DNA of 64,000 nucleotides from Squalus acanthias (taxonomy: Eukaryota): assembly GCA_030390025.1 (NCBI GenBank), contig JASTWF010000328.1, positions 186,001-250,000 on the forward strand, written 5' to 3'. Under the pieces are notes generated by a model. It was given only the letters and a program-made list of their open reading frames with translations, was not told where the DNA came from and ran no database searches. Positions 3,672 to 39,961 of this stretch are shown here, piece by piece. The stretch's first letter is position 1. The number at the start of each line of letters is the position of its first letter. Both the position numbers and the translations under genes were made by a program.

Positions 3672-4670
3672 TGAGAAGTCGCACAACACCAGGTTATAGT
3701 CCAACAGATTTATTTAATTTTACAAGCTTTCGGAGCTGTCGCTCCTTCGTCAGGTAAGTTAGCAATGAGAGAATCTCCCAGAATTCACAATTTAAACCCA
3801 GACAAAATCTATTCATATTATTCGCTACAACAAAGAGCACAGCCAAGACAATGAGATGTGTCCCAGGGGGTCCAACGTGTCAAACCACCTGCTGGCTGCA
3901 TATCCTGTCAATTTGTGTTCTTGTGTTAGCCTTTTAAAAAAAAAAAACCAAAAAAAAAAAAACCAAAAAAAACACCTGGGAAGACCGGCCAACGTTGTCT
4001 ACCTGATACGTTGCAGTAAAGGATGCTCCAGAGCATGGTACATCGGCGAGACCATGCAGACACTGAGACAACGTATGAACGGACACCGCGCAACAATCGC
4101 CAGGCAGGAGGGTTGCCTCCCAGTCGGGGAACACTTCAGCAGCCAGGGGCATTCAGCCTCGGATCTGCGGGTAAGCGTTCTCCAAGGCGGCCTTCGAGAT
4201 ACACGACAGCGCAAAATCATAGAGCAGAAACTGATAGCCAAGTTCCGCACTCATGAGGATGGCCTCAATCGCGATATCGGGTTCATGTCACGATACAGAA
4301 CGTGACTTGACATCATGGCCGGTCTTCCCAGGTGTTTTTTTTTTTTTTTTTTTTTGTTTTTTTTTTAAAAGGCAAACACAAGAACACAAATTGACAGGAT
4401 ATGCAGCCAGCAGGTGGTTTGACACGTTGGACCCCCTGGGACACATCTCATTGTCTTGGCTGTGCTCTTTGTTGTAGCGAATAATGTGAATAGATTTTGT
4501 CTGGGTTTAAATTGTGAATTCTGGGAGATTCTCTCATTGCTAACTTACCTGACGAAGGAGCGACAGCTCCGAAAGCTTGTAAAATTAAATAAATCTGTTG
4601 GACTATAACCTGGTGTTGTGCGACTTCTCATTTTTGTCCACCCCAGTCCAACGCCGGCATCTCCACATCA
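3672..4670 (+). mobile_element. Penelope-like element copy 1, 5'-truncated, with inverted pseudo-LTR
   Basis: GIY-YIG endonuclease C-terminus (NVVYLIRC..WYIGET) at 3986-4305. Left arm 3672-3991 is the reverse complement of ~4315-4631. 12-bp TSD taactataaata at 3660-3671 and 4671-4682. Confidence 0.92.
4549..4580 (+). ncRNA. Minimal hammerhead-ribozyme-like motif in Penelope pLTR
   Basis: CTGACGA-A-GGAGC-gaca-GCTCC-GAAA-GCTT: hammerhead core boxes flanking stem II. PLE pLTRs are known to carry minimal HHRs. Antisense copies lie in the inverted arms. Confidence 0.7.
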
Positions 4671-5397
4671 TAACTATAAATAGACAGAGAAAGGGGAGTC
4701 CCTGTCCCTTTAAATATCTGGCCCATTCCCCCAGCAGTGGGAGGAGGAACAGCGCGCGGTCTCTTTATCTCCTGATGTGGAGATGCCAGCGTTGGACTGG
4801 GGTGGACAAAAATGAGAAGTCGCACAACACCAGGTTATAGTCCAACAGATTTATTTAATTTTACAAGCTTTCGAAGCAGTTCGCTCCTTCATCAGGTAAG
4901 TTAGCAATGAGAGAATCTCCCAGAATTCACAATTTAAACCCAGACAAAATCTATTCACATTATTCCCTGCAACAAAGAGCACAGCCAAGACAATGAGATG
5001 TGTCCCAGGGGGTCCAACGTGTCAAACCACCTGCTGGCTGCATATCCTGTCAATTTGTGTTCTTGTGTTAGCCTTTTTAAAAAAAAAAACACCTGGGAAG
5101 ACCGGCCATGATGTCAAGTCACGTTCTGTATCGTGACATGAACCCGATATCGCGATTGAGGCCATCCTCATGAGTGCGGAACTTGGCTATCAGTTTCTGC
5201 TCTATGATTTTGCGCTGTCGTGTATCTCGAAGGCCGCCTTGGAGAACGCTTACCCGCAGATCCGAGGCTGAATGCCCCTGGCTGCTGAAGTGTTCCCCGA
5301 CTGGGAGGCAACCCTCCTGCCTGGCGATTGTTGCGCGGTGTCCGTTCATACGTTGTCTCAGTGTCTGCATGGTCTCGCCGATGTACCATGCTCTGGA

Positions 5398-6256
5398 CCC
5401 TAACCACGTTAAAGAAGCCATCCCCTATGGACAAGCCCTGCGAATACACAGGATCTGCTCAGACGAGGAGGAACGCGATGGACACCTACGGACACTGAAA
5501 GACGCTCTCGTAAGAACGGGATATGACGCTCGACTCGTCGATCGACAGTTCCGACGGGCCACAGCGAAAAACCGCATAGACCTCCTCAGAAGACGAACAT
5601 GGGACACAACCAACAGAGTACCCTACGTCGTCCAGTACTTCCCCGGAGCGGAAAAACTATGCCATGTTCTTCGCAGCCTTCAACATGTCATCGATGACGA
5701 AGAACACCTTGCTAAGGCCATCCCCACGCCTCCACTACTCGCCTTCAAGCAGCCGCCTAACCTCAAAAGTACCATCGTTCGCAGCAGATTACCCATCTTT
5801 CAGGAGAACAGCAACCAAGACACCACACAACCCTGCCATGGCAACCTCTGCAAGACATGCCAAATCATGGACACAGATACCATCATTACACGTGAGGACA
5901 CTACCCACCAGGTACACGGTACATACTCATGTGACTCGGCCAACGTTGTCTACCTGATACGTTGCAGTAAAGGATGCTCCAGAGCATGGTACATCGGCGA
6001 GACCATGCAGACACTGAGACAACGTATGAACGGACACCGCGCAACAATCGCCAGGCAGGAGGGTTGCCTCCCAGTCGGGGAACACTTCAGCAGCCAGGAG
6101 CATTCAGCCTCGGATCTGCGGGTAAGCGTTCTCCAAGGCGGCCTTCGAGATACACGACAGCGCAAAATCATAGAGCAGAAACTGATAGCCAAGTTCCGCA
6201 CTCATGAGGATGGCCTCAATCGCGATATCGGGTTCATGTCACGATACAGAACGTGA
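5398..6256 (+). CDS. Penelope-like ORF C-terminal fragment (RT thumb + Zn-linker + GIY-YIG endonuclease), Neptune-like
   Basis: PNHVKEAIPYGQALRIHRICSD...CHGNLCKTC...NVVYLIRC...YIGET...E..LIAKF...GLN. The ORF-track N-terminus (5174-5397) is only the antisense inverted arm. Confidence 0.85.
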
Positions 6257-6480
6257 CTTGACATCATGGCCGGTCTTCCCAGGTGTTTTTTTTTTTTAAA
6301 AAGGCTAACACAAGAACACAAATTGACAGGATATGCAGCCAGCAGGTGGTTTGACACGTTGGACCCCCTGGGACACATCTCATTGTCTTGGCTGTGCTCT
6401 TTGTTGCAGGGAATAATGTGAATAGATTTTGTCTGGGTTTAAATTGTGAATTCTGGGAGATTCTCTCATTGCTAACTTAC

Positions 6481-6513
6481 CTGACGAAGGAGCGAACTGC
6501 TTCGAAAGCTTGT
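6481..6513 (+). ncRNA. Minimal hammerhead-ribozyme-like motif
   Basis: CTGACGA-A-GGAGC-gaact-GCTTC-GAAA-GCTT. Confidence 0.65.
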
Positions 6514-6618
6514 AAAATTAAATAAATCTGTTGGACTATAACCTGGTGTTGCTCTTTTTGGTTGGACAAACACAAATTTACTGTAAATCAATTAAAACTT
6601 TAAATGAAACTTAACAAA

Positions 6619-9600
6619 TCAAATCAAAATTTGGAAGTCCGGGGTGACGATGCACTCCAGTCCCCGCGGCGCCCACCGGTCGCGGAAAAACTCAAGCGTG
6701 CCGGCGGACACCGCGTGCTCCATCTCCAGGGCCACCCGGGCGCGAACATGGCCGCGGAAGAGAGGCAGGCAATCGGGCCGAATGACCCCCTCGACCGCCC
6801 GCTGCCTGGACCAATTAATGGCTTTCTTGGCCAGGCCCAGGAGCAGTCCTACGAGGAGGTCCTCCGACCTACCCGCTCCCCTCCGCACCGGGTGACCGTA
6901 GATCAGGAGCGTGGGGCTGAAGTGCAACCAGAAATTGAGGAGCAGCCCCTTCAAATAATGAAAGAGGGGCTGCAACCTCTCACACTCAATATAAATGTGA
7001 TAGACGGACTCCTCCAGGCCGCAGAAATGGCAAGCAGCCTGGGAGTCCGTAAACCTACTTAAAATTTTATTGCACGGGACTGCTCCGTGCAACACCCTCC
7101 AGGCCAAGTCCCCAATAGAACAAGGGAAGACTCCCACGTAGAGAGCCTTCCAATGGGGACCTTCGCCTCCGCCGGACGGCAGGATGGTACGCCAAGGCGT
7201 GTCCGGACGGCAGACGAAGATGGCAAAGTGGAGAGTGTGCAGGAGCAGCCCGTACAGGAAACGCCTCCGTGCGGATTGAAAGGGCACGGAGGGCATTTCT
7301 CCGAGAAGGCTCAAGTGGTGAGGCGGCGGCTCCCGAGGGAGGATTCGGGGCCGGGCGCCGATAAGGAATTCCGTCCGAACGGGGGTCAGTTCGGACGGGA
7401 TCGCCCCACGTGCTTGAGCCTCCTCGACACACCTAGTGGAGACGGGGCCCAGTGCCACTTTTAGCGACTCGATGGCTTTGACCGCGAGCCGGACGTTGAC
7501 CCAGGACATGCGCCTCGCCAACTCCTCCGGCGCCATCCAGCCCGCTCCTCCACCATCGAGCAGGTCCCCGACTCTGGTCACCTTACCGGGCACAGCCCTG
7601 CCCTCCGCCAGCCAGCCGAACCCGCGGTCGTGGAGGTGCGGATTCCTGAACAGCGGCTCCCGAAGGATGGCCGCCGCTCCTGACGGGGGAGAACTGCGCT
7701 CGGAGGCGACGCTGTTCCAAACCCATAGCAGTTCCTGGTAGAAGACAGGCAGCTCCCGCAGGCTGGCACGCGTGCCACCCACTCTCACAAACAGGAGCTG
7801 CGTGTCGTAATTGAGGCCGTGCAGCTGGCGGAAGAAATACGTCGCCAGCGCACGCCACCTAGGAGGATTCTCCACGTACAGGTATCTCTGCAGTGTCTGA
7901 AGATGGAAAGTCGCCGCCTGGGTGCGAAGGCACACCAGCGCCTGACCGCCCTCCCTAAGCGGGAGACTCAAAACCGCGGCAGAGACCCAGTGCTTCCTTT
8001 TGTCCCAGAAGAAGTCGACGAGCTTCTTCTGCATCTTGGCGACAAACGCAGGGGGAGGGATCAAAGTGACCAACTGGTACCACAACATGGCGGCCACCAG
8101 CTGGTTTATGACCAGCGCTCGACCCCTGTAGGACAACACTCGGAGCAGTCCTGTCCAGCGCCCTAGGCGAGCGGTGACTTTGGCCTCCAGCTCTTGCCAG
8201 TTCGCCGGCCAGGCGTCCTCGGCCGGGCTGAGGTAGACTCCCAGGTAGAGGAGGTGCGTGGTGCTCCAGGCGAAAGGCCCGAACTCCTCCGGCAGGGAGT
8301 CCACCCGCCATGGGCCCACCAGGAGTCCAGAACATTTCTCCCAGTTGATCTTGGCGGAGGATGCGTCTGAGTAAATCTGCTGGCATTCTCGCATCCTCCG
8401 CAAGTCGATGGGATCCGTGACCGCGAGGAGCACGTCATCGGCGTAAGCCGAGAGGACCACCTCCACGCCCGGCCCTTGCAGAGCCAGTCCCGTCAACCTC
8501 TTCCGCAAGAGGCGCAGGAAAGGCTCCACGCAAACGGCGTATAACTGACCGGACATGGGGCATCCCTGACGCACCCCCCTCCCGAAGCGAAGGGGCGCCG
8601 TCAAAGATCCGTTAACTTTAATGAGACACTCCACGGCGGCGTACAGAAGTCGGATCCGGGCGACGAAATGCGTCCCGAACCCGAATGCGCGCAGAGTCCC
8701 GAAAAGATACTCGTGATCCACCCTGTCGAACGCCTTCTCCTGATCCAGGGAAAGGAAGGCGACCGACAGACCAGCCCTCTGGGAATGGTGGACCAGGTCC
8801 CGGACCAGATGGATGTTATCGTGGATACTCCGGCCCGGGACCGTGTAGGACTGGTCGGGGTGGATCATGCAGGCCAGCACGGTGCCAAGGCGAGCAGACA
8901 TAGCCCTGGCGAAAATTTTGTAGTCCGTGCTGAGGAGGGAGACCGGGCGCCAGTTCTTAAGTAGGCGGAGATCGCCCTTCTTGGGCAGCAGGACGATGAC
9001 CGCCCTGCGCCAAGAGAGGGGCATCTCCCCGGTCGCCAGACTTTCCCCCAGGACCCGCGCGCAGTCGTCCCCCAAGACGTCCCAGAACGCCATGTGGAAC
9101 TCCACGGTCAGCCCGTCCAGCCCCGGGGACTTGCCCCTCGAGAGCTGGCGCAGGGCGCCGGTCAGCTCCGCCAGGCTTAGCGGAGCTTCTAAATTCTCGG
9201 CGCCCTCCGGGCCGACCTTCGGCAGCTCCTCCCACAAAACTCTGCGCGCATCCTCGCTGGACGGATCCGAAGAGAACAGAGCCCCGTAATAGGCCCGGGC
9301 CTCCGCGCTGATGCCCTCCGGATCCGAGACCAGAGATCCGTCGTCGGCCAGCAGCCCCAAGAGCTGCTTACGGACCCCCCGTCTTTTTTCCAGCGAGTAG
9401 AAGAAGGGGGAACCGCGGTCCAGGTCCCGCAGGAACTGGATCCGCGACCTCACGTACGCGCCTCGGGACCCGACCAGCTGCAGGTCCTTCAGCGCGCCCT
9501 TCTTCTCTTCGTACACCTTCCGCAGGGCCGGGTCCTCGACGACCTGACCGAGACGGGACTCCAGGTCGAGCACTTCTTTCTCCAATTGCCCGACCCGGGC

Positions 9601-10518
9601 CTCCCGCCTCTTGGTCGACCCCTTCGCGTACTCCTGACAGAAGACGCGGACGTGAGCCTTGCCCACGTCCCACCATAGCCTCAAGGAGGGGAAGCCTCCC
9701 CGCTTCCTTCTCCAGTCGGCCCAGAACCGGCGAAACGAATCCCGGAACCGCGCGTCCTCCAGCAGCAGGTTGTTAAAATGCCAGTACGCGGACCCCCCCC
9801 GCGCGCGCAGCAGAGCGAGCTCTGCCCACACCAGGTGGTGGTCCGTGCACGGCACCGGCCGCATGGAAGCCGCCGGAACGCAGGAGACGTACGCCCGGGA
9901 AATGTAAAGACGGTCGATTCTGGACCTTCCTCCTCCAGACCTCACGCTCGTGAAGGCGCTGGAGTCGGGATGGAGATTTCGCCAGACGTCCACAAAGTCG
10001 AAGGACCCGACCAGGTCCCGCAACTTCTCCATCGCCGCCGGGCTTCGCGGGGGACCCGACCGGTCCCGCGCCTCGAGGGTACAATTGAAATCCCCCCCGA
10101 GGATGACGCACTCGCCCACGTCGATGGAGCCCAGAAGAGCGGACACTTCTCCGAAGAAGCGCACTTGCTGCGCACCGGTCCGGGGGGCGTACACGTTCAC
10201 TAAATGGAGCGGCACGCCTCCCAGGCGAACAGTGACCTGGAGCAAGCGGCCCGGCACGTGCTCCTTGACCCTCAAGATCTCCGGCTGAAAATGCGGGGCC
10301 AGCAAGACAGCCACCCCGCAGGAATTGTTAGAGAGGTGACTCATGCTGACCCCTCCTTGCCACTCCAGGAGCCACGTGGCCTCGTCTCCCGGAGCGGTGT
10401 GGGTTTCTTGCAGGAAGCGCACCGCATATTTCCCGTCCCGAAGGACCGAGAAGTTATTGAATCTACGGCGCGCCTCCCTGCTGCCGTTGATGTTGAGGCT
10501 GGCTATGGTTATCTTCAT
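6619..10518 (-). CDS. Tx1 ORF2 (AP endonuclease, reverse transcriptase, C-terminal zinc finger), intact
   Basis: SLNINGS, LQETH, GGDFN, RIDR, TDH (APE); LDQEKAFDRV, QGCPMS, YADD (RT); CHFC..H...C. First ATG at 10518. Confidence 0.95.
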   Translation of the reverse strand: MKITIASLNINGSREARRRFNNFSVLRDGKYAVRFLQETHTAPGDEATWLLEWQGGVSMSHLSNNSCGVAVLLAPHFQPEILRVKEHVPGRLLQVTVRLGGVPLHLVNVYAPRTGAQQVRFFGEVSALLGSIDVGECVILGGDFNCTLEARDRSGPPRSPAAMEKLRDLVGSFDFVDVWRNLHPDSSAFTSVRSGGGRSRIDRLYISRAYVSCVPAASMRPVPCTDHHLVWAELALLRARGGSAYWHFNNLLLEDARFRDSFRRFWADWRRKRGGFPSLRLWWDVGKAHVRVFCQEYAKGSTKRREARVGQLEKEVLDLESRLGQVVEDPALRKVYEEKKGALKDLQLVGSRGAYVRSRIQFLRDLDRGSPFFYSLEKRRGVRKQLLGLLADDGSLVSDPEGISAEARAYYGALFSSDPSSEDARRVLWEELPKVGPEGAENLEAPLSLAELTGALRQLSRGKSPGLDGLTVEFHMAFWDVLGDDCARVLGESLATGEMPLSWRRAVIVLLPKKGDLRLLKNWRPVSLLSTDYKIFARAMSARLGTVLACMIHPDQSYTVPGRSIHDNIHLVRDLVHHSQRAGLSVAFLSLDQEKAFDRVDHEYLFGTLRAFGFGTHFVARIRLLYAAVECLIKVNGSLTAPLRFGRGVRQGCPMSGQLYAVCVEPFLRLLRKRLTGLALQGPGVEVVLSAYADDVLLAVTDPIDLRRMRECQQIYSDASSAKINWEKCSGLLVGPWRVDSLPEEFGPFAWSTTHLLYLGVYLSPAEDAWPANWQELEAKVTARLGRWTGLLRVLSYRGRALVINQLVAAMLWYQLVTLIPPPAFVAKMQKKLVDFFWDKRKHWVSAAVLSLPLREGGQALVCLRTQAATFHLQTLQRYLYVENPPRWRALATYFFRQLHGLNYDTQLLFVRVGGTRASLRELPVFYQELLWVWNSVASERSSPPSGAAAILREPLFRNPHLHDRGFGWLAEGRAVPGKVTRVGDLLDGGGAGWMAPEELARRMSWVNVRLAVKAIESLKVALGPVSTRCVEEAQARGAIPSELTPVRTEFLIGARPRILPREPPPHHLSLLGEMPSVPFQSARRRFLYGLLLHTLHFAIFVCRPDTPWRTILPSGGGEGPHWKALYVGVFPCSIGDLAWRVLHGAVPCNKILSRFTDSQAACHFCGLEESVYHIYIECERLQPLFHYLKGLLLNFWLHFSPTLLIYGHPVRRGAGRSEDLLVGLLLGLAKKAINWSRQRAVEGVIRPDCLPLFRGHVRARVALEMEHAVSAGTLEFFRDRWAPRGLECIVTPDFQILI

Positions 10519-10543
10519 CTCAGAAGCATAGTGCAACCTCTAC

Positions 10544-12703
10544 CTAACGGAGGGGAGGGAGCGCGGTCACCGACGACCGCCACTCCCTCAGCAGCCCAGT
10601 GTGGAAACTCTTGAGCCGACGCAGCTCGAGCCGGCCAACGTCCTTGTCCGCGCCCATGATTTTAACGGCGGCGCGGACGGACACGACGAGCAGCGCCAGC
10701 TCCGACCACTTGTCGAGGGCCAGCCGGATCTTCTTGTGACGACCCTGGCTCATGGCCATAAAATCCCGGAGTTCCCCTACGGGGATGAGGGGAGAGTTGG
10801 TGAAGGGCACGAGGGCATCCATCACCTCGCTGCCGATGGACTCCAAATCGTCCTCGATGCCCACCACCGAGTCCCCGTCCTCCTCCGGGAGGTCGTCACC
10901 GGCGGCCGACCCGTCCGTCGCACGGGGTGCAGCGAACGGCTCGGCCGCACCGGCCGGCCCCGCCTCCGTCACGATCCCACCCCCAGGATCGGTGGCAGAG
11001 GAGTCCACCCTGGGCTCCTTCAGGGGCGCCGGGCCGGGAGGCGGCGGCGGCGGTTCGGGGCCCCCCCCCCGCCTCAGGCGCCGGAGCGACCGGAGAAACC
11101 GGGGAGAAAATAATCTCAAATTCCTCCAGTACGTCCGGCGCCAACATCAGAGACGGAGTCAGGGGGCTTTCCGTCTCCCCGCCACCAACCTCCGACACAG
11201 CGGGCTGGGGATTGTTAAAGTCCTCCACCAGGTCGAGCAGTCCCTGGGAGATATCTGGATTGTAAAAGGCGGGCTCGGCTTCAGCCTCTTTGGCCTCGCC
11301 CGCCCCAGTCCCCAGGACGCCCGACCCGGCGAGGAGCAACGGTTCCGGAACTACATTTCCCTCCGCGGGTTGTTCCGCGCCCCCCCCCCCACGGGCAGGG
11401 TCTCTTCCCCATCCCCGGGAGGCACAGGTCGGACAGACTCGGCTGTCTCACCCTCCCGAGGGACAGACGACCCCTGCCGATCGCGCGCGACGATGACGGT
11501 GGTGGGGTGGGGCGCAGCACCCGCGGCGGGCGACTGCCCCCCTTTTGCGGAGGGACCTTCCTCCTCGCAGTCCTCCTGCTGGGGGCGGAGCTTTCTTTTT
11601 AACAAGTTGGGGCCCGGGGAGGGGGAGGCCTCCATGTCTGCTGGGGCCTCCCTCTCTGCCCCCTTCCGACGACTGGGTTTCTTGGGCCCCTCGGGCCCGA
11701 GCCCGGCCGCAGGTCTTGATTCAGCTGCCTCAGCAGTTGCCGTCACGGTCACGGGCCCGGGCACGAGGACCCCCCCAGTCTCATGCGTCCCGACCAACTC
11801 CGCGATATACTCGGGCGTGAGTTCGGTCAATTCCGATGTTTCCTCCGCGAGGGGATCCGCCCTTAGGTGTTTAGTTTTCCTACGCGCCTTCCTTCCCCCC
11901 GGACGCTCTCCCTCCTCCCCGCCGGAGGCCGTGGTGGTGTTGGCCTCCGATTCCGACCGCGCATCCGTCGCCGTCGACGCGCGGACAGCATCAGGGGGAG
12001 GGGGGGCGGCGGCGCCAACCCTGGCCGCGCCAGGTGTCGTGGCGGCCTTGGAGGCGGGGCAGTTTTTGCGGACGTGCCCCACCTCCTTACAGGCGTAGCA
12101 CCGCTCGCCGTCCGAGGTCCAGAAGACGCGGTGGGCGGTCCCCCCGTGGAGCACCGTGAACGCGCCATCCGCGTCCTCCTCCCGCGCCAGCCAGACGAAA
12201 AGCTGGCGCCGGAAGGAGAAGACGTGCCGAAGGCTGGCTTCCCGGAAGCCGAGCGGGATGGGTGTGATCCCCGACCTCACCTCCCCCAGTTGACGTAGGT
12301 GGGGGAGGAGGAGCTCACCCGGAACAAAGGGCGGGACGTTGGAAACCACAATCCTTTGCGCGGTGGCCTCAAGGGGGTCCACCGGCAGGAAGGTCCCGCC
12401 CACGGTGAGCCCCTTCTCGATGGCCAGGGACACCGCCCGCTCCGACCCCAGGAAGAACACAGCCTTGCCGTACATTTTAGAGGCGGCGACGATGGCTGAA
12501 GGGCCGACAACCCCAGCCATGGCTTTAACGCACGCCTCTATAGTCATGTTGGGGTGAGTGTAGCTCTTGACCCCATTCTTCCTCGTAAGGAGGGTAAAAG
12601 GTGACGGGGTAACAGGAGGACTCGTGGCTGCGGCCGTGGCCGCGGCTGCCACGCTCGCATACGTCCTCGCTGCCCCCGCCACCGACGAAGATGTACTCGC
12701 CAT
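10544..12703 (-). pseudogene. Tx1 ORF1 copy A, split by homopolymer indels
   Basis: Matches copy B ORF1 but has C11 vs C9 at ~11380-11390 and C10 vs C9 at 11061-11070, giving a stop at 11351. Confidence 0.85.
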
Positions 12704-13803
12704 AATGGAGGGTTCTTTAAGGGCTACACTCACCCCAAGTCACAGGCCTGAAGGTGTTAATGGCCTCGGTTTTTTATTTCTGTTTTCCCCTGAGCAGAGG
12801 GAGCTCTTAAATTGAAGGCACACCTCTCCCTTTAGTTGATTGAATTAGGAGAGGGGCCTTCTCCCCTCTGCTCAATAGGTACTTAATTAAAATAGATTGA
12901 GGTGCCTCTTAGAGAGAGAGGCAGAGAGAGACAAGAGACAAAGAGAGAGAGAGAGGGGGGGGTGGGAAGGAGGGAAGCCGCAAGGGCAGGGTCGCCACTC
13001 AGGATGGTGGGTGGGTGGGTGTTGGCAGGGGGGGTGCACTCTCCGATGTAATAAAAGTCTCTGGTGGTGGTCTTCTGGTGGGGGGAGAAGATGTCTTCAC
13101 CTGGGATAGCTGGAGATGCCCAGGCTCAGTCCTGCACCAGGTCTTAACGATGCCCAATTGGATTAAATTAATTGGGGAACTTCACCTAGGCAGCTCCAGC
13201 TGGCCCAGGTCAGGCAATGGGAAAGGGGTGTTTAATATGGTGTGTGCGGCCTAGGTTTTACAAAAGCCACACACACACACACACACCCCTTGGATGTTCC
13301 GGCCCTCTTCTTATCTTCTTTCCTCCCCCCACCTACAAAACAAAGTCTCTGGGAGAGTGCACCAGAATCACACCCACCTGTAGCTGATGTTCTTTCCTTC
13401 CTTCCTCCTTCCAAACAGATGATGTTGTGTTGTTTTCTCCCCTCTCTCCCTCTCCTAAAAATGGAGGCCAATTGAGGAGGCAGTGTGGAAAGGCCTCTCC
13501 TCTGTTGTTAATGGCCTTGGCCTTTCCTTCTTTTCCTTCTCCTCTCCTGTCCTCCCTCTCCAGGCACCTCAGTTGTGGTTGTTGTTGGTTGTTGGTGGTG
13601 GTCTGCTATCTGGTCTCCTTCTCCTTCTCCTCTTCCTGGTCACAGAGACCACCACTCTGATGCTGCTGCTCCTCAGTCAGCAGCTCCGAAAGCTTGTGAT
13701 TTCAAATCAAGCTGTTGGACTATAACCTGGTGTTGATCTTTTTGGTTTGACAGAACGCAAATTTACTGTAAATCAATTAAAACTTGAAATGAAACTTAAT
13801 AAA

Positions 13804-16800
13804 TCAAATTAAAATTTGAAAGTCCGGGGTGACGATGCACTCCAGTCCCCGCGGCGCCCACCGGTCGCGGAAAAACTCAAGCGTGCCGGCGGACACCGCG
13901 TGCTCCATCTCCAGGGCCACCCGGGCGCGAACATGGCCGCGGAAGAGAGGCAGGCAATCGGGCCGAACGACCCCCTCGACCGCCCGCTGCCTGGACCAAT
14001 TAATGGCTTTCTTGGCCAGGCCCAGGAGCAGTCCTACGAGGAGGTCCTCCGACCTACCCTGTCCCCTCCGCACCGGGTGACCGTAGATCAGGAGCGTGGG
14101 GCTGAAGTGCAACCAGAAATTGAGGAGCAGCCCCTTCAAATAATGAAAGAGGGGCTGCAACCTCTCACATTCAACATAAATGTGATAAACGGACTCCTCC
14201 AGGCCGCAAAAATGGCAAGCAGCCTGGGAGTCCGTAAACCTACTTAAAATCCTATTGCACGGGACTGCTCCGTGCAACACCCTCCAGGCCAAGTCCCCAA
14301 TAGAACAAGGGAAGACTCCCGCGTAGAGAGCCTTCCAATGGGGACCTTCGCCTCCGCCGGACGGCAGGATGGTACGCCAAGGCGTGTCCGGACGGCAGAC
14401 GAAGATGGCAAAGTGGAGAGTGTGCAGGAGCAGCCCGTACAGGAAACGCCTCCGTGCGGATTGAAAGGGCACGGAGGGCATTTCTCCGAGAAGGCTCAAG
14501 TGGTGAGGCGGCGGCTCCCGAGGGAGGATTCGGGGCCGGGCGCCGATAAGGAATTCCGTCCGAACGGGGGTCAGTTCGGACGGGATCGCCCCACGTGCTT
14601 GAGCCTCCTCGACACACCTAGTGGAGACGGGGCCCAGTGCCACTTTTAGCGACTCGATGGCTTTGACCGCGAGCCGGACGTTGACCCAAGACATGCGCCT
14701 CGCCAACTCCTCCGGCGCCATCCAGCCCGCTCCTCCGCCATCGAGCAGGTCCCCGACTCTGGTCACCTTACCGGGCACAGCCCTGCCCTCCGCCAGCCAG
14801 CCGAACCCGCGGTCGTGGAGGTGCGGATTCCTGAACAGCGGCTCCCGAAGGACGGCCGCCGCTCCTGACGGGGGAGAACTGCGCTCGGAGGCGACGCTGT
14901 TCCAAACCCATAGCAGTTCCTGGTAGAAGACAGGCAGCTCCCGCAGGCTGGCACGCGTGCCACCCACTCTCACAAACAGGAGCTGCGTGTCGTAATTGAG
15001 GCCGTGCAGCTGGCGGAAGAAATACGTCGCCAGCGCACGCCACCTAGGAGGATTCTCCACGTACAGGTATCTCTGCAGCGTCTGAAGACGGAAAGTCGCC
15101 ACCTGGGTGCGAAGGCACACCAGCGCCTGACCGCCCTCCCTAAGCGGGAGACTCAAAACCGCGGCAGAGACCCAGTGCTTCCTTTTGTCCCAGAAGAAGT
15201 CGACGAGCTTCTTCTGCATCTTGGCGACAAACGCAGGGGGAGGGATCAAAGTGATCAACCGGTACCACAACATGGCGGCCACCAGCTGGTTTATGACCAG
15301 CGCTCGACCCCTGTAGGACAACACTCGGAGCAGTCCTGTCCAGCGTCCTAGGCGAGCGGTGACTTTGGCCTCCAGCTCTTGCCAGTTCGCCGGCCAGGCG
15401 TCCTCGGCCGGGCTGAGGTAGACTCCCAGGTAGAGGAGGTGCGTGGTGCTCCAGGCGAAAGGCCCGAACTCCTCCGGCAGGGAGTCCACCTGCCATGGGC
15501 CCACCAGGAGTCCAGAACATTTCTCCCAGTTGATCTTGGCGGAGGATGCGTCCGAGTAAATCTGCTGGCATTCTCGCATCCTCCGCAAGTCGACGGGATC
15601 CGTGACCGCGAGGAGCACGTCATCGGCGTAAGCCGAGAGGACCACCTCCACGCCCGGCCCTTGCAGAGCCAGTCCCGTCAACCTCTTCCGCAAGAGGCGC
15701 AGGAAAGGCTCCACGCAAACGGCGTATAACTGACCGGACATGGGGCATCCCTGACGCACCCCCCTCCCGAAGCGAAGGGGCGCCGTCAAAGACCCGTTAA
15801 CTTTAATCAGACACTCCGCGGCGGCGTACAGAAGTCGGATCCGGGCGACGAAATGCGTCCCGAACCCGAATGCGCGCAGAGTCCCGAAAAGATACTCGTG
15901 ATCCACCCTGTCGAACGCCTTCTCCTGATCCAGGGAAAGGAAGGCGACCGACAGACCAGCCCTCTGGGAATGGTGGACCAGGTCCCGGACCAGATGGATG
16001 TTATCGTGGATACTCCGGCCCGGGACCGTGTAGGACTGGTCGGGGTGGATCATGCGGGCCAGCACGGTGCCAAGGCGAGCAGACATAGCCCTGGCGAAAA
16101 TTTTGTAGTCCGTGCTGAGGAGGGAGACCGGGCGCCAGTTCTTAAGTAGGCGGAGATCGCCCTTCTTGGGCAGCAGGACGATGACCGCCCTGCGCCAAGA
16201 GAGGGGCATCTCCCCGGTCGCCAGACTTTCCCCCAGGACCCGCGCGTAGTCGTCCCCCAAGACGTCCCAGAACGCCCTGTGGAACTCCACGGTCAGCCCG
16301 TCCAGCCCCGGGGACTTGCCCCTCGAGAGCTGGCGCAGGGCGCCGGTCAGCTCCGCCAGGCTTAGCGGAGCTTCTAAATTCTCGGCGCCCTCCGGGCCGA
16401 CCTTCGGCAGGTCCTCCCACAAAACTCTGCGCGCATCCTCGCTGGACGGATCCGAAGAGAACAGAGCCCCGTAATAGGCCCGGGCCTCCGCGCTGATGCC
16501 CTCCGGATCCGAGACCAGAGATCCGTCGTCGGCCAGCAGCCCCAAGAGCTGCTTACGGACCCCCCGTCTTTTTTCCAGCGAGTAGAAGAAGGGGGAGCCG
16601 CGGTCCAGGTCCCGCAGGAACTGGATCCGCGACCTCACGTACGCGCCTCGGGACCCGACCAGCTGCAGGTCCTTCAGCGCGCCCTTCTTCTCTTCGTACA
16701 CCTTCCGCAGGGCCGGGTCCTCGACGACTTGACCGAGACGGGACTCCAGGTCGAGCACTTCTTTCTCCAATCGCCCGACCCGGGCCTCCCGCCTCTTGGT

Positions 16801-17703
16801 CGACCCCTTCGCGTACTCCTGACAGAAGACGCGGACGTGAGCCTTGCCCACGTCCCACCATAGCCTCAAGGAGGGGAAGCCTCCCCGCTTCCTTCTCCAG
16901 TCGGCCCAGAACCGGCGAAACGAATCCCGGAACCGCGCGTCCTCCAGCAGCAGGTTGTTAAAATGCCAGTACGCGGACCCCCCCCGCGCGCGCAGCGGAG
17001 CGAGCTCCGCCCACACCAGGTGGTGGTCCGTGCACGGCACCGGCCGCATGGAAGCCGCCGGAACGCAGGAGACGTACGCCCGGGAAATGTAAAGGCGGTC
17101 GATTCTGGACCTTCCTCCTCCAGACCTCACGCTCGTGAAGGCGCTGGAGTCGGGATGGAGATTTCGCCAGACGTCCACCAAGTCGAAGGACCCGACCAGG
17201 TCCCGCAACTTCTCCATCGCCGCCGGGCTTCGCGGGGGACCCGACCGGTCCCGCGCCTCGAGGGTACAATTGAAATCCCCCCCGAGGATGACGCACTCGC
17301 CCACGTCGATGGAGCCCAGAAGAGCGGACACTTCTCCGAAGAAGCGCACTTGCTGCGCACCGGTCCGGGGGGCGTACACGTTCACTAAATGGAGCGGCAC
17401 GCCTCCCAGGCGAACAGTGACCTGGAGCAAGCGGCCCGGCACGTGCTCCTTGACCCTCAAGATCTCCGGCTGAAAATGCGGGGCCAGCAAGACAGCCACC
17501 CCGCAGGAATTGTTGGAGAGGTGACTCATGCTGACCCCTCCTTGCCACTCCAGGAGCCACGTGGCCTCGTCTCCCGGAACGGTGTGGGTTTCTTGCAGGA
17601 AGCACACCGCATATTTCCCGTCCCGAAGGACCGAGAAGTTATTGAATCTACGGCGCGCCTCCCTGCTGCCGTTGATGTTGAGGCTGGCTATGGTTATCTT
17701 CAT
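13804..17703 (-). CDS. Tx1 ORF2 (APE-RT-zf), intact
   Basis: Same motifs as copy A. First ATG at 17703. Confidence 0.95.
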   Translation of the reverse strand: MKITIASLNINGSREARRRFNNFSVLRDGKYAVCFLQETHTVPGDEATWLLEWQGGVSMSHLSNNSCGVAVLLAPHFQPEILRVKEHVPGRLLQVTVRLGGVPLHLVNVYAPRTGAQQVRFFGEVSALLGSIDVGECVILGGDFNCTLEARDRSGPPRSPAAMEKLRDLVGSFDLVDVWRNLHPDSSAFTSVRSGGGRSRIDRLYISRAYVSCVPAASMRPVPCTDHHLVWAELAPLRARGGSAYWHFNNLLLEDARFRDSFRRFWADWRRKRGGFPSLRLWWDVGKAHVRVFCQEYAKGSTKRREARVGRLEKEVLDLESRLGQVVEDPALRKVYEEKKGALKDLQLVGSRGAYVRSRIQFLRDLDRGSPFFYSLEKRRGVRKQLLGLLADDGSLVSDPEGISAEARAYYGALFSSDPSSEDARRVLWEDLPKVGPEGAENLEAPLSLAELTGALRQLSRGKSPGLDGLTVEFHRAFWDVLGDDYARVLGESLATGEMPLSWRRAVIVLLPKKGDLRLLKNWRPVSLLSTDYKIFARAMSARLGTVLARMIHPDQSYTVPGRSIHDNIHLVRDLVHHSQRAGLSVAFLSLDQEKAFDRVDHEYLFGTLRAFGFGTHFVARIRLLYAAAECLIKVNGSLTAPLRFGRGVRQGCPMSGQLYAVCVEPFLRLLRKRLTGLALQGPGVEVVLSAYADDVLLAVTDPVDLRRMRECQQIYSDASSAKINWEKCSGLLVGPWQVDSLPEEFGPFAWSTTHLLYLGVYLSPAEDAWPANWQELEAKVTARLGRWTGLLRVLSYRGRALVINQLVAAMLWYRLITLIPPPAFVAKMQKKLVDFFWDKRKHWVSAAVLSLPLREGGQALVCLRTQVATFRLQTLQRYLYVENPPRWRALATYFFRQLHGLNYDTQLLFVRVGGTRASLRELPVFYQELLWVWNSVASERSSPPSGAAAVLREPLFRNPHLHDRGFGWLAEGRAVPGKVTRVGDLLDGGGAGWMAPEELARRMSWVNVRLAVKAIESLKVALGPVSTRCVEEAQARGAIPSELTPVRTEFLIGARPRILPREPPPHHLSLLGEMPSVPFQSARRRFLYGLLLHTLHFAIFVCRPDTPWRTILPSGGGEGPHWKALYAGVFPCSIGDLAWRVLHGAVPCNRILSRFTDSQAACHFCGLEESVYHIYVECERLQPLFHYLKGLLLNFWLHFSPTLLIYGHPVRRGQGRSEDLLVGLLLGLAKKAINWSRQRAVEGVVRPDCLPLFRGHVRARVALEMEHAVSAGTLEFFRDRWAPRGLECIVTPDFQILI

Positions 17704-17728
17704 CTCAGAAGCATAGTGCAACCTCTAC

Positions 17729-19885
17729 CTAACGGAGGGGAGGGAGGGCGGTCACTGACGACCGCCACTCCCTCAGCAGCCCAGTGTGGAACGTCTTGAG
17801 CCGACGCAGCTCGAGCCGGCCAACGTCCTTGTCCGCGCCCATGATTTTAACGGCGGCGCGGACGGACACGACGAGCAGCGTCAGCTCCGACCACTTGTCG
17901 AGGGCCAGCCGGATCTTCTTGTGACGACCCTGGCTCACGGCCATAAAATCCCGGAGTTCCCCTACGGGGATGAGGGGAGAGTCGGTGAAGGGCACGAGGG
18001 CGTCCATCGCCTCGCTGCCGATGGACTCCAAATCGTCCTCGATGCCCCCCACCGAGTCCCCGTCCTCCTCCGGGAGGTCGTCACCGGCGGCCAACCCGTC
18101 CGTCACACAGGGTGCAGCGAACGGCTCGGCCGCACCGGCCGGCCCCGCCTCCGTCACGATCCCACCCCCAGGATCGGTGGCAGAGGAGTCCACCCTGGGC
18201 TCCTTCAGGGGCGCCGGGCCGGGAGGCGGCGGCGGCGGTTCGGGGCCCCCCCCCGCCTCAGGCGCCGGGGCGACCGGAGAAACCGGGGAGAAAATAATCC
18301 CAAATTCCTCCAGCACGTCCGGCGCCAACAACAGAGACGGAGTCAGGGGGCTTTCCGTCTCCCCGCCACCAACCTCCGACCCAGCGGGCTGGGGATTGCT
18401 ACACTCCTCCACCAGGTCGAGCAGTCCCTGGGAGATATCTGGGTTATAAAAGGCGGGCTCGGCTTCAGCCTCTTTGGCCTCGCCCGCCCCAGTCCCCAGG
18501 ACGCCCGACCCGGCGAGGAGCAACGGTTCCGTAACTACATTTCCCTCCGCGGGTTGTTCCGCGCCCCCCCCCACGGGCAGGGTCTCTTCCCCATCCCCGG
18601 GAGGCACAGGTCGGACAGACTCCGCTGTCTCACCCTCCCGAGGGACAGACGACCCCTGCCGATCGCGCGCGACGATGACGGTGGTGGGGTGGGGCGCAGC
18701 ACCCGCGGCGGGCGACTGGCCCCCTTTTGCGGAGGGACCTTCCTCCTCGCAGTCCTCCTGCTGGGGGCGGAGCTTTCTTTTTAACGTATTGGGGCCCGGA
18801 GAGGGGGAGGCCTCCATGTCTGCTGGGGCCTCCCTCTCTGCCCCCTTCCGACGACTGGGTTTCTTGGGCCCCTCGGGCCCGAGCCCGGCCGCAGGTCTTG
18901 ATTCAGCCGCCTCGGCAGTTGCGGTCACGGTCACGGGCCCGGGCACGAGGACCCCCCCAGTCTCATGCGTCCCGACCAACTCCGCGATATACTCGGGCGT
19001 GAGTTCGGCCAATTCAGATGTTTCCTCCGCGAGGGGATCCGCCCTTATGTGTTTATTTTTCCTACGCGCCTTCCTTCCCCCCGGACGCTCTCCCTCCTCC
19101 CCGCCGGAGGCCGTGGTGGAGTTGGCCTCCGATTTCGACCGCGCATCCGTCGCCGTCGACGCGCGGACAGTATCAGGGGGAGGGGGGGCGGCGGCGCCAA
19201 TCCTGGCCGCGCCAGGTGTCGTGGCGGCCTTGGAGGCGGGGCAGTTTTTGCGGACGTGCCCCACCTCCTTACAGGCGTAGCACCGCACGCCGTCCGAGGT
19301 CCAGAAGACGCGGTGGGCGGTCCCCCCGTGGAGCACCGTGAACGCGCCGTCCGCGTCCTCCTCCCGCGCCAGCCGGACGAAAAGCTGGCGCCGGAAGGAG
19401 AAGACGTGCCGAAGGCTGGCTTCCCGGAAGCCGAGCGGGATGGGTGTGATCCCCGACCTCACCTCCCCCAGTTGACGTAGGTGGGGGAGGAGGAGCTCAC
19501 CCGGAACAAAGGGCGGGACGTTGGAGACCACAATCCTTTGCGCGGTGGCCTCAAGGGGGTCCACCGGCAGGAAGGTCCCGCCCACGGTGAGCCCCTTCTC
19601 GATGGCCAGGGACACCGCCCGCTCCGACCCCAGGAAGAACACAGCCTTGCCGTACATTTTAGAGGCGGCGACGATGGCTGAAGGGCCGACAACCCCAGCC
19701 ATGGCTTTTACACACGCCTCTATAGTCATGTTGGGGTGAGTGTAGCTCTTGACCCCATTCTTCCTCGTAAGGAGGGTAAAAGGTGACGGGGTAACAGGAG
19801 GACTCGTGGCTGCGGCCGTGGCCGCGGCTGCCACGCTCGCATACGTCCTCGCTGCCCCCGCCACCGACGAAGATGTACTCGCCAT
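17729..19885 (-). CDS. Tx1 ORF1 (nucleic-acid-binding protein, CCHC zinc knuckle, long low-complexity tail)
   Basis: CYACKEVGHVRKNC knuckle; RIVVSNVPPFV RRM-like segment typical of Tx1 ORF1. First ATG at 19885. Confidence 0.9.
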   Translation of the reverse strand: MASTSSSVAGAARTYASVAAAATAAATSPPVTPSPFTLLTRKNGVKSYTHPNMTIEACVKAMAGVVGPSAIVAASKMYGKAVFFLGSERAVSLAIEKGLTVGGTFLPVDPLEATAQRIVVSNVPPFVPGELLLPHLRQLGEVRSGITPIPLGFREASLRHVFSFRRQLFVRLAREEDADGAFTVLHGGTAHRVFWTSDGVRCYACKEVGHVRKNCPASKAATTPGAARIGAAAPPPPDTVRASTATDARSKSEANSTTASGGEEGERPGGRKARRKNKHIRADPLAEETSELAELTPEYIAELVGTHETGGVLVPGPVTVTATAEAAESRPAAGLGPEGPKKPSRRKGAEREAPADMEASPSPGPNTLKRKLRPQQEDCEEEGPSAKGGQSPAAGAAPHPTTVIVARDRQGSSVPREGETAESVRPVPPGDGEETLPVGGGAEQPAEGNVVTEPLLLAGSGVLGTGAGEAKEAEAEPAFYNPDISQGLLDLVEECSNPQPAGSEVGGGETESPLTPSLLLAPDVLEEFGIIFSPVSPVAPAPEAGGGPEPPPPPPGPAPLKEPRVDSSATDPGGGIVTEAGPAGAAEPFAAPCVTDGLAAGDDLPEEDGDSVGGIEDDLESIGSEAMDALVPFTDSPLIPVGELRDFMAVSQGRHKKIRLALDKWSELTLLVVSVRAAVKIMGADKDVGRLELRRLKTFHTGLLREWRSSVTALPPLR

Positions 19886-20939
19886 AATGGAGGGTTCTTT
19901 AAGGGCTACACTCACCCCAAGTCACAGGCCTGAAGGTGTTAATGGCCTCGGTTTTTTTTGTTTTAGTTTTCCCCTGAGCAGAGGGAGCTCTTAAATTGAA
20001 GGCACACCTCTCCCTTTAGTTGATTGAATTGGGAGAGGGGCCTTCTCCCCTCTGCTCAATGGGTATTTAATAAAATGTTAATTGAGGTGCCTCTTAGAGA
20101 GAGAGGCAGAGAGAGACAGAGACAAAGAGAGAGAGAGAGAGGGGGTAGGAAGGAGGGAAGCCGCAAGGGCAGGGTCGCCACTCAGGATGGTGGGTGGGTG
20201 GGTGTTGGCAGGGGGGGTGCACTCTCCGATGTAATAAAAGTCTCTGGTGGTGGTCTTCTGGTGGGGGGAGAAGATGTCTTCACCTGGGATAGCTGGAGAT
20301 GCCCAGGCTCAGTCCTGCACCAGGTCTTAACGATGCCCAATTGGATTAAATTAATTGGGGAACTTCACCTAGGCAGCTCCAGCTGGCCCAGGTCAGGCAA
20401 TGGGAAAGGGGTGTTTAATATGGTGTGTGCGGCCTAGGTTTTACAAAAGCCACACACACACACACACACACCCCTTGGATGTTCCGGCCCTCTTCTTATC
20501 TTCTTTCCTCCCCCCACCTACAAAACAAAGTCTCTGGGAGAGTGCACCAGAATCACACCCACCTGTAGCTGATGTTCTTTCCTTCCTTCCTCCTTCCAAA
20601 CAGATGATGTTGTGTTGTTTTCTCCCCTCTCTCCCTCTCCTAAAAATGGAGGCCAATTGAGGAGGCAGTGTGGAAAGGCCTCTCCTCTGTTGTTAATGGC
20701 CTTGGCCTTTCCTTCTTTTCCTTCTCCTCTCCTGTCCTCCCTCTCCAGGCACCTCAGTTGTGGTTGTTGTTGGTTGTTGGTGGTGGTCTGCTATCTGGTC
20801 TCCTTCTCCTTCTCCTCTTCCTGGTCACAGAGACCACCACTCTGATGCTGCTGCTCCTCAGTCAGCAGCTCCGAAAGCTTGTGATTTCAAATCAAGCTGT
20901 TGGACTATAACCTGGTGTTGTGCGACCTCTCAGGAGGAG

Positions 20940-39875: not shown

Positions 39876-39961
39876 GCTTCACCTGACGAAGGAGCAGCCG
39901 CTCCGAAAGCTTGTGATTTCAAATAAAACTGTTGGACTATAACCTGGTGTTGTGCGACTTC
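39876..39961 (+). mobile_element. 86-bp solo Penelope terminal fragment containing the HHR-like core
   Basis: CTGACGAAGGAGCagccGCTCCGAAAGCTT..ctgttggactataacctggtgttgtgcgacttc, flanked by TSD tcataaatag (39866-39875, 39962-39971). Confidence 0.9.

What the first reader, a model, noticed from the sequence alone, without database searches (positions are those of the whole stretch)
6528..20932. Tx1 LINE family that appears to target the Penelope-like element terminal repeat
Seen: the Penelope pLTR reads ..ctgttggactataacctggtgttg|tgcgac(t/c)tctca (intact at 4595-4630 and 39929-39964). In Penelope copy 2 it breaks after ..ggtgttg (6551) and resumes tgcgacctctca at 20921. Two non-identical full-length Tx1 elements lie in between, antisense to Penelope. 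Both have their 3' end joined at precisely the same base of this motif (6551/6552 and 13735/13736), ~40 nt downstream of the hammerhead-like core. Known: Tx1-clade LINEs are often sequence-specific (Tx1L in Tx1D transposons, Keno in U2, Mutsu in 5S, Dewa in tRNA spacers, Kibi/Koshi in microsatellites). Inference: this family uses another retroelement's ribozyme-bearing pLTR as its safe-harbour target. I do not know of a described PLE-targeting Tx1.
Basis: partly seen in the sequence, partly recalled or inferred. Interest (0 to 1): 0.88.

Follow-up and report, generated by a model that had tools for sequence, protein, structure and literature searches.

The report
Tx1 LINE that targets Penelope repeats
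A young family of Tx1-type jumping genes in this large vertebrate genome inserts, with single-base precision, into one short conserved sequence in the end repeat of another, very abundant retroelement (a Penelope-like element), adding a new kind of target to a LINE group already known for targeted insertion.

Summary
The window carries two full-length Tx1-clade LINEs (7184 and 7185 nt, 98.4% identical, minus strand). Both 3' ends join the same base after GGTGTTG in the end repeat (pLTR) of a Penelope-like element (PLE).

Genome-wide evidence:
- 82 of 105 sampled 3' junctions of one subfamily carry the 24-nt motif. Fourteen more sit in a target remnant next to another Tx1.
- 168 of 247 junctions of a second subfamily are exact motif joins.
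- The empty 30-nt site occurs 90,712 times.
- Flanking PLE copies differ in subfamily and truncation point, so the insertions are independent.

Short solo copies show a 15-bp target duplication. Four off-target sites natively read GTGTTG at the nick.

ORF2 is 50% identical over its whole length to Xenopus Tx1 ORF2.

Full-length copies carry 16-55 nt of target-like sequence at their own 5' end, which rebuilds the site. Of 29 rebuilt sites, 16 hold another Tx1, which explains the tandem pair in the window.

Tx1 families targeting DNA transposons and LTR retrotransposons are published. I found no PLE-targeting one in the library searched; Repbase and Dfam could not be searched.

Rfam did not detect the hammerhead, but a manual reading fits the published minimal PLE form.

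This is a new member of a known kind, of moderate interest.

The parts
5204..6551 (+). 5'-truncated Penelope-like element: C-terminal part of its ORF (GIY-YIG-type region, to 6256) and the 3' pLTR up to the Tx1 insertion point
   Evidence: It is 98% identical at protein level to many genomic copies, whose open frames reach 919-950 aa. The full copy L155 has pLTR, a 905-aa ORF with RVT_1, and a second pLTR.
6477..6515 (+). Minimal hammerhead-like core of the pLTR: helix I TTAC/GTAA, CTGACGA box 6481-6487, helix II GGAGC/GCTTC, GAAA 6504-6507, palindromic AGCT; predicted cleavage after 6511
   Evidence: Read by eye and parsed. Of 26 distinct cores, 23 have helix II fully paired, and helix I covaries (TCAC/GTGA versus TTAC/GTAA). 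Rfam gave no hit.
6528..6551 (+). Left half of the target, the 24-nt motif. The first-strand nick falls after 6551 (GGTGTTG^). Positions 6537-6551 are the 15-bp stretch that is duplicated.
6552..13735 (-). Tx1 copy 1, full length (7184 nt). ORF2 is 6619-10518. The ORF1 frame is interrupted (longest piece 11351-12703, 450 aa). The 5' target-like segment is 13681-13735.
13736..20920 (-). Tx1 copy 2, full length (7185 nt). ORF2 is 13804-17703 (1299 aa), ORF1 is 17729-19885 (718 aa, zinc knuckle), and the 5' target-like segment is 20866-20920. It is inserted in the site rebuilt at the 5' end of copy 1.
20921..20932 (+). Right half of the interrupted PLE target (tgcgacctctca)
   Evidence: In other copies it continues as ttttgtccaccccagtccaac...catca, the PLE 3' end.
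4595..4630 (+). Unoccupied target in a neighbouring PLE pLTR; an inverted partner copy of the motif lies at 4825-4848(-)
39929..39964 (+). Unoccupied target in a short 5'-truncated PLE fragment that looks flanked by a repeat of ataaatag
   Evidence: the flanking repeat was read by eye

Best explanation
This is a recently active, sequence-specific Tx1-clade LINE family. Its target is a conserved block, ...CTGTTGGACTATAACCTGGTGTTG^TGCGAC..., in the pLTR of an abundant Penelope-like element. The site lies about 40 nt downstream of the minimal hammerhead core and 52 nt upstream of the PLE ORF start and 3' terminus.

Shown by sequence:
- The element always lies antisense to the PLE.
- Its 3' end is joined after GGTGTTG on the PLE-sense strand.
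- A 15-bp stretch (TATAACCTGGTGTTG) is duplicated, so the two nicks are staggered by 15 bp.
- Rare off-target insertions lie at sites that natively read (G)GTGTTG^T(G).

Inferred:
- The APE endonuclease of ORF2 nicks the PLE-sense strand, and the freed 3' end primes reverse transcription, as for Xenopus Tx1L.
- Base pairing of the primer with read-through RNA may add to the precision.

Full-length copies carry 16, 46 or 55 nt of target-like sequence at their own 5' end, which subfamilies inherit. This implies that transcripts start at or upstream of the duplicated stretch. Each full-length insertion therefore rebuilds an intact target at its 5' side. That rebuilt site is reused very often, which gives head-to-tail arrays such as the pair in the window.
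For: Family identity:
- ORF2 has Exo_endo_phos (residues 6-227) and RVT_1 (512-761).
- It is 50% identical to Xenopus laevis Transposon TX1 149 kDa protein over 1299 aa, with 10 gap positions. Against human L1 ORF2p it scores only 285 bits.

Target use:
- The exact 29-mer of the 3' end occurs at 126 places. I read 105 distinct junctions.
- 82 carry the 24-nt motif with at most 3 mismatches: 46 in a PLE hammerhead context (33 distinct flanks), 22 behind another Tx1 5' end, and 14 in other contexts.
- Of the remaining 23, 14 lie behind a Tx1 with a 10-18 nt target remnant and 9 lie elsewhere.
- In the second subfamily, 168 of 247 are exact motif joins.
- The empty 30-mer occurs 90,712 times in 3.71 Gb.

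Independence of insertions:
- PLE homology ends exactly at the nick, with five different PLE truncation points.
- Flanks come from several PLE subfamilies.

Target duplication:
- L019 and L020 are on target, with TATAACCTGGTGTTG on both sides.
- L021, L037 and L044 are off target, each with its own 15-bp duplication ending in GTGTTG. L047 has only a short duplication (about 5-6 nt), but its native site also reads GGTGTTG at the nick.

The 5' segment is carried by the element:
- It differs from the left flank in the window and in L008, L136, L139 and L141.

Published parallel (passages read):
- Tx1L endonuclease nicks almost only its target (PMC1950540).
- Tx1 families target piggyBac, Mariner, Harbinger and LTR elements (PMC4494074).
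Against: - No biochemical or expression evidence. The runs laid are only guessed to be RNA, so transcription, the transcript start and any read-through remain unshown.
- The samples are young copies chosen by exact 3'-end words. Older or diverged copies were not surveyed. One older Tx1-like 3' end in L120 has no motif beside it.
- 9 of 105 junctions are off target, and 4 of those (L050, L055, L075, L095) were not resolved.
- Arrays of equal truncated units are probably DNA-level amplifications, so some counted junctions are not independent events.
- The 5' segment matches different PLE variants in different copies (L111, L141). Its origin, inherited or re-acquired, is not settled.
- No RT phylogeny was made.
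Confidence: 0.92

Rival explanations
1. The precision comes mainly from RNA, not from the endonuclease. Transcripts read through into the downstream PLE sequence (CAACACC...), and only nicked DNA ending in ...GTGTTG can pair with it and prime. The endonuclease itself is loosely specific.
For: All four resolved off-target sites keep GTGTTG upstream of the nick but share at most 1-3 bases downstream. The element has no A-tail. Its last base varies, A in 61 and C in 44 of 105 on the window strand. Co-transcription with the target is said to strengthen targeting in other site-specific LINEs (passage in PMC4494074).
Against: The closest studied relative, Tx1L, has an endonuclease that is itself site-specific (passages in PMC1950540). 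A 15-bp stagger at every resolved site fits protein-positioned nicks. No read-through transcript was seen, because the RNA status of the runs is unknown.
Confidence: 0.2
2. There is no targeting. One composite (Tx1 plus PLE piece) was spread by segmental or tandem DNA duplication, or the motif is simply the Tx1's own 3' tail.
For: Many copies stand in tandem arrays. Arrays of identical truncated units (317, 749 and 773 nt) look like DNA-level amplification. Full-length copies do carry target-like sequence at their 5' end.
Against: There are 33 distinct PLE flanks. PLE homology of five different lengths ends exactly at the nick, and several PLE subfamilies are hit. Both PLE halves flank solo copies with a 15-bp duplication. 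Off-target copies lack the motif and have their own duplications. The empty site occurs 90,712 times. Adjacent copies in arrays belong to different subfamilies, 94-97% against 99% identity.
Confidence: 0.02
3. Insertion is random or only weakly biased, and copies survive only inside PLE repeats because insertions elsewhere are removed by selection.
For: The target is a harmless, very abundant repeat. Copies are young, so no direct measure of loss exists.
Against: Selection cannot produce the same base, the same orientation and a fixed 15-bp duplication in 82 of 105 copies. Other positions of the roughly 3-kb PLE, equally harmless, are not used. Off-target sites resemble the target core.
Confidence: 0.01

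Closest known systems
Xenopus laevis Tx1L, the type element of the Tx1 clade, inserted in the piggyBac-type transposon Tx1D
   Same: Same ORF2 layout and length (1299 against 1308 aa), 50% identity end to end. It also inserts at one specific site inside another mobile element. The Tx1L endonuclease is known to be site-specific (PMC1950540 and PMC4494074, passages).
   Different: The target here is a retroelement (PLE pLTR), not a DNA transposon. The endonuclease hairpin-loop region differs: SGGG-R here against RDGHVSQ in Tx1L (aligned; the role of the loop is taken from PMC1950540). The 5' carried target copy and heavy tandem reuse were not checked for Tx1L.
Crocodilian Tx1-Mar, Tx1-9_AMi, Tx1-8_Crp and Tx1-4_AMi with their SINEU partners (Kojima 2015, PMC4494074)
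   Same: These are Tx1 families whose targets are other transposons: Mariner, Harbinger and specific LTR retrotransposons. A duplication of about 16 bp and 'tandem insertions sandwiching a TSD' are described for SINEU-3 (passages; section 15).
   Different: No PLE target is named in that text; its figure 3 and supplements were not seen. No SINE partner was looked for here, though L008 is an internally deleted copy. The present family is young, with copies 98-100% alike.
R1, R2 and other rDNA- or snRNA-specific LINEs (Keno, Mutsu and others)
   Same: They use a conserved multicopy sequence as their landing site. Upstream or downstream target sequence in the transcript helps precise joining (passage in PMC4494074; further detail recalled).
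   Different: Their targets are host genes under host selection. Here the target is kept conserved by another selfish element. R2 uses a different endonuclease type.

Membership tests
Tx1 clade of non-LTR retrotransposons | ORF2 with an N-terminal APE-type endonuclease followed by a reverse transcriptase | tested here: met
   Exo_endo_phos at 6-227 (E 2e-11) and RVT_1 at 512-761 (E 8e-38). zf-RVT scores below its cut-off. The catalytic motifs align with Tx1.
Tx1 clade of non-LTR retrotransposons | Closer to the type element Tx1L than to other clades | tested here: met
   50% identity over 1299 aa to Xenopus TX1 149 kDa protein (1391 bits by HMMER); human L1 ORF2p scores 285 bits and R2 proteins at most 84 bits.
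Tx1 clade of non-LTR retrotransposons | Placement inside the Tx1 clade in an RT phylogeny with reference clades | not tested
   No Repbase reference set was on hand and no tree was built.
Tx1 clade of non-LTR retrotransposons | Sequence-specific insertion (frequent in the clade, not universal; Kojima's criterion is one target in more than 20% of flanks) | tested here: met
   82 of 105 junctions and 168 of 247. The criterion is quoted from PMC4494074.
Penelope-like elements (the target) | [quoted passage not shown] | tested here: inconclusive
   L155 has a 905-aa ORF with RVT_1 (E 2e-8). Pfam found no GIY-YIG and the PDB search found nothing. By eye the C-terminus reads VVYLIRC...YIGET...R..NGH. 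The nearest Atlas clusters carry HTH_animal, DUF8422, RVT_1 and, in part, GIY-YIG (a lead only).
Penelope-like elements (the target) | Direct pseudo-LTRs flanking the ORF; many 5'-truncated and inverted copies | tested here: met
   In L155 the same 190-nt block stands before the ATG and after the ORF. Inverted motif pairs are seen, and varied truncation points. The features are as described in PMC4209133 and PMC11167929 (passages and sections read).
Penelope-like elements (the target) | Minimal hammerhead motif in the pLTR | tested here: inconclusive
   Rfam gave no hit at gathering score or at E up to 10. A manual parse found CTGANGA, a 5-bp helix II, GAAA and the palindromic AGCT in 26 distinct cores. 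Helix II is fully paired in 23, and helix I has one covarying pair. This fits the dimeric minimal form of PMC4209133. Cleavage is not testable here.

The most novel reading that the evidence does not exclude
The copy of the target that the element carries at its 5' end may be a device and not a scar. It makes the finished cDNA end in ...CCTGGTGTTG-3', the very primer that the nicked target offers. The reverse transcriptase could then start again on a second Tx1 RNA and lay down head-to-tail concatemers in a single integration event. At the least, it rebuilds a strongly preferred landing site beside every full-length copy. This would explain why 16 of 29 rebuilt sites are occupied against a few percent at most of the 90,712 PLE sites. 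It would also make the family a self-nesting hyperparasite of the Penelope-like element.
Probability: 0.25. Interest if true: 0.65.

Novelty: new member of a known kind. Interest (0 to 1): 0.45.

Why it matters
The finding extends the list of Tx1-clade targets (snRNA, 5S and tRNA genes, microsatellites, DNA transposons, LTR retrotransposons) to the third class of retroelements.

It is a clean natural case of one retroelement living inside another. The landing site is kept constant by the needs of the host element, not by those of the genome.

With about 90,000 empty sites, hundreds of near-identical copies, a fixed nick and a fixed 15-bp stagger, the family is a convenient system for studying three questions:
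- how an APE-type endonuclease reads a long sequence;
- how 5' junctions form;
- why tandem arrays arise.

Programmable or site-specific LINE integration is of current technical interest.

For genome annotation, it explains 7.2-kb periodic arrays and satellite-like arrays built from truncated Tx1 units.

Tried and rejected
- Rfam found no hammerhead or any other family at gathering score over the whole window. With E up to 10 on 4300-6600 it gave only two chance-level hits.
- Pfam and the PDB sequence search did not detect a GIY-YIG domain in the PLE ORF.
The step was dropped, and flanks were fetched by coordinates instead.
The 30 loci could not be cut out for the same reason. The second subfamily therefore rests on exact-word counts only, and four off-target copies stay unresolved.
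- Sequencing runs and laid contigs: the 'RNA' label of X1-X8 is a guess, all data are contigs, and none listed bridges the 3' junction. Nothing can be said about expression, transcript starts or read-through.
- Earlier findings of the scan: none for this genome or these words.
- I first read the 6-18 nt motif 'tails' at non-PLE junctions as read-through copied from the RNA. I rejected this for L021, L037 and L044 because the same bases recur in the 15-bp duplication at the other end, and for L047, which has only a short (about 5-6 nt) duplication, because its native site reads GGTGTTG^TGC. So these bases belong to the native site.
- L017 looked off target but is an insertion in a very short PLE fragment that has its own flanking repeat.
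- I considered a hammerhead on the Tx1 sense strand, because its 5' region holds CTGACGAAGGAG. I dropped the idea because no GAAA or helix III context follows. The 12-mer is more likely a relic of a PLE fold-back copy like those in L049, L077 and L083.
Full report
**What is in the window**

The 24-mer CTGTTGGACTATAACCTGGTGTTG occurs seven times in the window and in none of 100 shuffles. At 4595-4630 and 39929-39964 it runs on into tgcgacttctca. At 6551/6552 and 13735/13736 it is followed by (c/a)tctttttggtt..., and tgcgacctctca resumes at 20921.

Between these points lie two elements on the minus strand, 6552-13735 (7184 nt) and 13736-20920 (7185 nt). They are 98.4% identical. Each has a 1299-aa ORF2. 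The two ORF2s differ at 22 residues. Copy 2 has a 718-aa ORF1 with a zinc knuckle. In copy 1 that frame is interrupted.

**What the elements are**

ORF2 has an APE-type endonuclease (residues 6-227) and a reverse transcriptase (512-761).
- Its best named relative among 346 hits is the Xenopus laevis 'Transposon TX1 149 kDa protein'. BLASTP gives 50% identity over 1299 residues with 10 gap positions.
- Human L1 ORF2p scores only 285 bits, and R2 proteins score less.

I did not build an RT tree. On these data the element belongs to the Tx1 clade.

**What the target is**

The motif belongs to a very abundant retroelement.
- A protein search with the ORF fragment at 5381-6253 gave 59,798 first-look candidates. 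Of these, 134 were scored; every copy other than the window's own is 97-98% identical, and open frames reach 919-950 aa.
- One full copy (L155) reads as a 190-nt block, then ATG, then a 905-aa ORF with RVT_1, then the same block ending ...ggcatctccacatca. This is the pLTR-ORF-pLTR layout of Penelope-like elements (PMC4209133 passages; PMC11167929 outline and first part of the main text).
- Pfam and the PDB search did not find the GIY-YIG domain. The C-terminus reads like one by eye, and the nearest Atlas clusters carry HTH_animal, DUF8422, RVT_1 and partly GIY-YIG (a lead only).
- Rfam found no hammerhead. In 26 distinct flanks the core parses as CTGANGA, a 5-bp helix II (fully paired in 23), GAAA and the palindrome AGCT. 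Helix I is either TCAC/GTGA (13 flanks) or TTAC/GTAA (8 flanks). This matches the dimeric 'minimal' hammerhead described for PLE pLTRs (PMC4209133). Activity is unknown.

The Tx1 nick lies 40 nt past the predicted cleavage site. It is 52 nt before the PLE ATG and the PLE 3' end.

**Genome-wide test**

The window's genome is held (3.71 Gb).

Subfamily 1:
- The 149-nt 3' end of copy 1 gave 1729 first-look candidates. The 40 scored were 99-100% identical.
- Its exact 29-mer occurs at 126 places.
- I read the flank of 105 distinct junctions: 30 loci and 73 stretches fetched by coordinates. Rows from one overlapping locus (L033) were dropped.
- 82 carry the 24-nt motif with at most 3 mismatches, directly at the junction and always in the same orientation.
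- Of these 82, 46 continue upstream into the PLE hammerhead core (33 distinct flanks), 22 into the 5' end of another Tx1, 8 have only the GAAAGCTT box, and 6 have other contexts.
- Of the 23 without the full motif, 11 follow a 5'-truncated Tx1 plus 10-18 nt of the motif, 3 follow a Tx1 5' UTR, and 9 lie elsewhere.

Subfamily 2, the type of copy 2:
- Its exact 30-mer occurs 247 times.
- 168 of these are exact joins to the perfect motif.

Background:
- The empty 30-mer target occurs 90,712 times. That is about one strand position in 80,000, so chance is excluded.

**Independent insertions**

- In five loci the PLE homology left of the junction ends exactly at the nick. It starts at five different PLE positions.
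- Other flanks belong to a second PLE subfamily with a different 3' region. One of them keeps an ORF piece.
- Several variants of the 16 nt upstream of the motif are hit.

This rules out the spread of a single composite.

**Anatomy of integration**

Short solo copies show both ends.
- On-target copies L019 and L020 have TATAACCTGGTGTTG on both sides.
- Off-target copies L021, L037 and L044 have their own 15-bp duplications: ctgttttaggtgttg, ccatcactggtgttg and agccctcgagtgttg. L047 has a short one.
- The native off-target sites therefore read GGTGTTG^G, CTGGTGTTG^T, GTGTTG^TG and GGTGTTG^TGC.

So the first nick follows GTGTTG on the PLE-sense strand, the second nick lies 15 bp upstream on the other strand, and the core (G)GTGTTG^T(G) matters most. 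L017, which looked off target, sits in a tiny PLE fragment with its own flanking repeat.

It is inferred, not shown, that the endonuclease sets this specificity. The inference rests on Tx1L, whose endonuclease nicks almost only its own target (PMC1950540, passages). The hairpin-loop region differs between the two proteins. Pairing of the primer with read-through RNA is a live alternative.

**The 5' end and the arrays**

Full-length copies begin, on their own strand, with target-like sequence of 55 nt, 46 nt or 16-17 nt, depending on subfamily. Beyond the 15-bp duplication this segment does not match the left flank:
- in the window, gtgatttcaaatcaag stands against gtaaaattaaataaat;
- the same holds in L008, L136, L139 and L141.

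The segment therefore travels with the element, which implies transcripts that start at or upstream of it. In L111 and L141 it matches other PLE variants, so it is sometimes renewed.

Each full-length insertion thus rebuilds an intact target at its 5' side. Of 29 readable 5' ends (30 loci, one without the anchor), 16 are followed at once by another Tx1 and 13 by tgcgac.... By contrast, PLE sites are occupied at a few percent at most: roughly one to three thousand first-look candidates against 90,712 exact empty sites.

Neighbours in arrays belong to different subfamilies, 94-97% against 99% identity to copy 1. Full-length arrays are therefore not simple recent DNA duplications. The pair in the window is one such array. 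Why rebuilt sites are so favoured is unexplained. Local reinsertion, or re-priming by the finished cDNA, are inferences.

**Comparison and novelty**

Tx1-clade families are known for target specificity, including targets inside other transposons:
- Tx1L in piggyBac-type Tx1D;
- crocodilian families in Mariner, Harbinger and LTR retrotransposons, with a duplication of about 16 bp and tandem insertions sandwiching it (PMC4494074, passages and section 15).

Six full-text searches found no Tx1 or other LINE reported to target a Penelope-like element. For most papers I saw listings and abstracts only; passages were read in five. Repbase, Dfam, Repbase Reports, and figure 3 and the supplements of PMC4494074 were not available, so prior cataloguing cannot be excluded.

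I rate this a new member of a known kind. The mechanism is the expected one, the target class is new, and the inherited target copy with its heavy reuse is the most interesting detail.

**Limits**

- Only young copies were sampled.
- No expression evidence exists. The RNA label of the runs is a guess, and only contigs were laid.
- No phylogeny and no biochemistry were done.

Noticed in passing
L018 (G000:C8:141707940-141711088), L029/L030 (C18:1438xxxx), L014 (C18:1519xxxx), C3256:710476-711882: Satellite-like arrays of 5'-truncated Tx1 3' ends. All units in an array have the same length (317, 773, 749 and about 273-287 nt), and each unit is separated by 10-18 nt of the target motif. Units are 97-99% alike. 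This looks like DNA-level amplification, or repeated copying of one truncated unit.
   Followed up: partly
L104-L133: More than half of the target sites rebuilt at full-length Tx1 5' ends (16 of 29) already hold another Tx1. At most a few percent of the 90,712 PLE sites are occupied. This is a strong, unexplained preference for landing next to an existing copy.
   Followed up: partly
window 13660-13680 and 20845-20865; L049, L077, L083: The Tx1 5' UTR starts, on the window strand, with ...ctcct(c/t)(a/c)gtcag next to cagctccgaaagc. In many copies this reads ctccttcgtcag, the exact reverse complement of the hammerhead box plus helix II strand (ctgacgaaggag). Some PLE copies show the same fold-back at helix II, so the Tx1 5' end may descend from such a fold-back PLE copy.
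   Followed up: no
L008 (G000:C3223:2400696-2403844): An internally deleted Tx1: 182 nt of the 3' end joined directly to the last 79 nt of the 5' end, inserted on target. It could be a seed for a non-autonomous, SINE-like derivative.
   Followed up: no
L120 reverse strand 1890-2500 (G000:C9:28833050-28836277): An older Tx1-like 3' end, 94.7% identical to copy 1, with a different terminus (ctctttttgataaaacc...). It is not flanked by the PLE motif. It may be a diverged lineage with another target or an off-target copy.
   Followed up: no
window 4400-5060; one search list; L155 4551-4760: PLE end repeats very often stand as inverted pairs 80-250 nt apart, tail to tail or head to head. This matches the published note of paired minimal hammerheads on opposite strands.
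   Followed up: no
Runs under at least six organism codes (A, B, D, E, F, G) hold 68-77% of the sampled 31-letter words of copy 2. Near-identical Tx1 copies therefore exist in several labelled organisms. These may be close relatives, or one species under several labels; this was not resolved.
   Followed up: partly
window 40253-42535(+), 52641-54497(+), 311-817(-), and many arrays (e.g. 21347-22872, 35914-37300, 51582-52314): Two further ORFs with reverse transcriptase domains, a C2H2 zinc-finger ORF, and numerous minisatellites with 20-140 nt units. The window is almost wholly repetitive.
   Followed up: partly
junction base, 105 copies: The first element base at the junction is A in 61 copies and C in 44. 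Nine or more copies read ggtgttc in place of ggtgttg just before it. This suggests a one-base slack in where reverse transcription starts, or subfamily differences.
   Followed up: no
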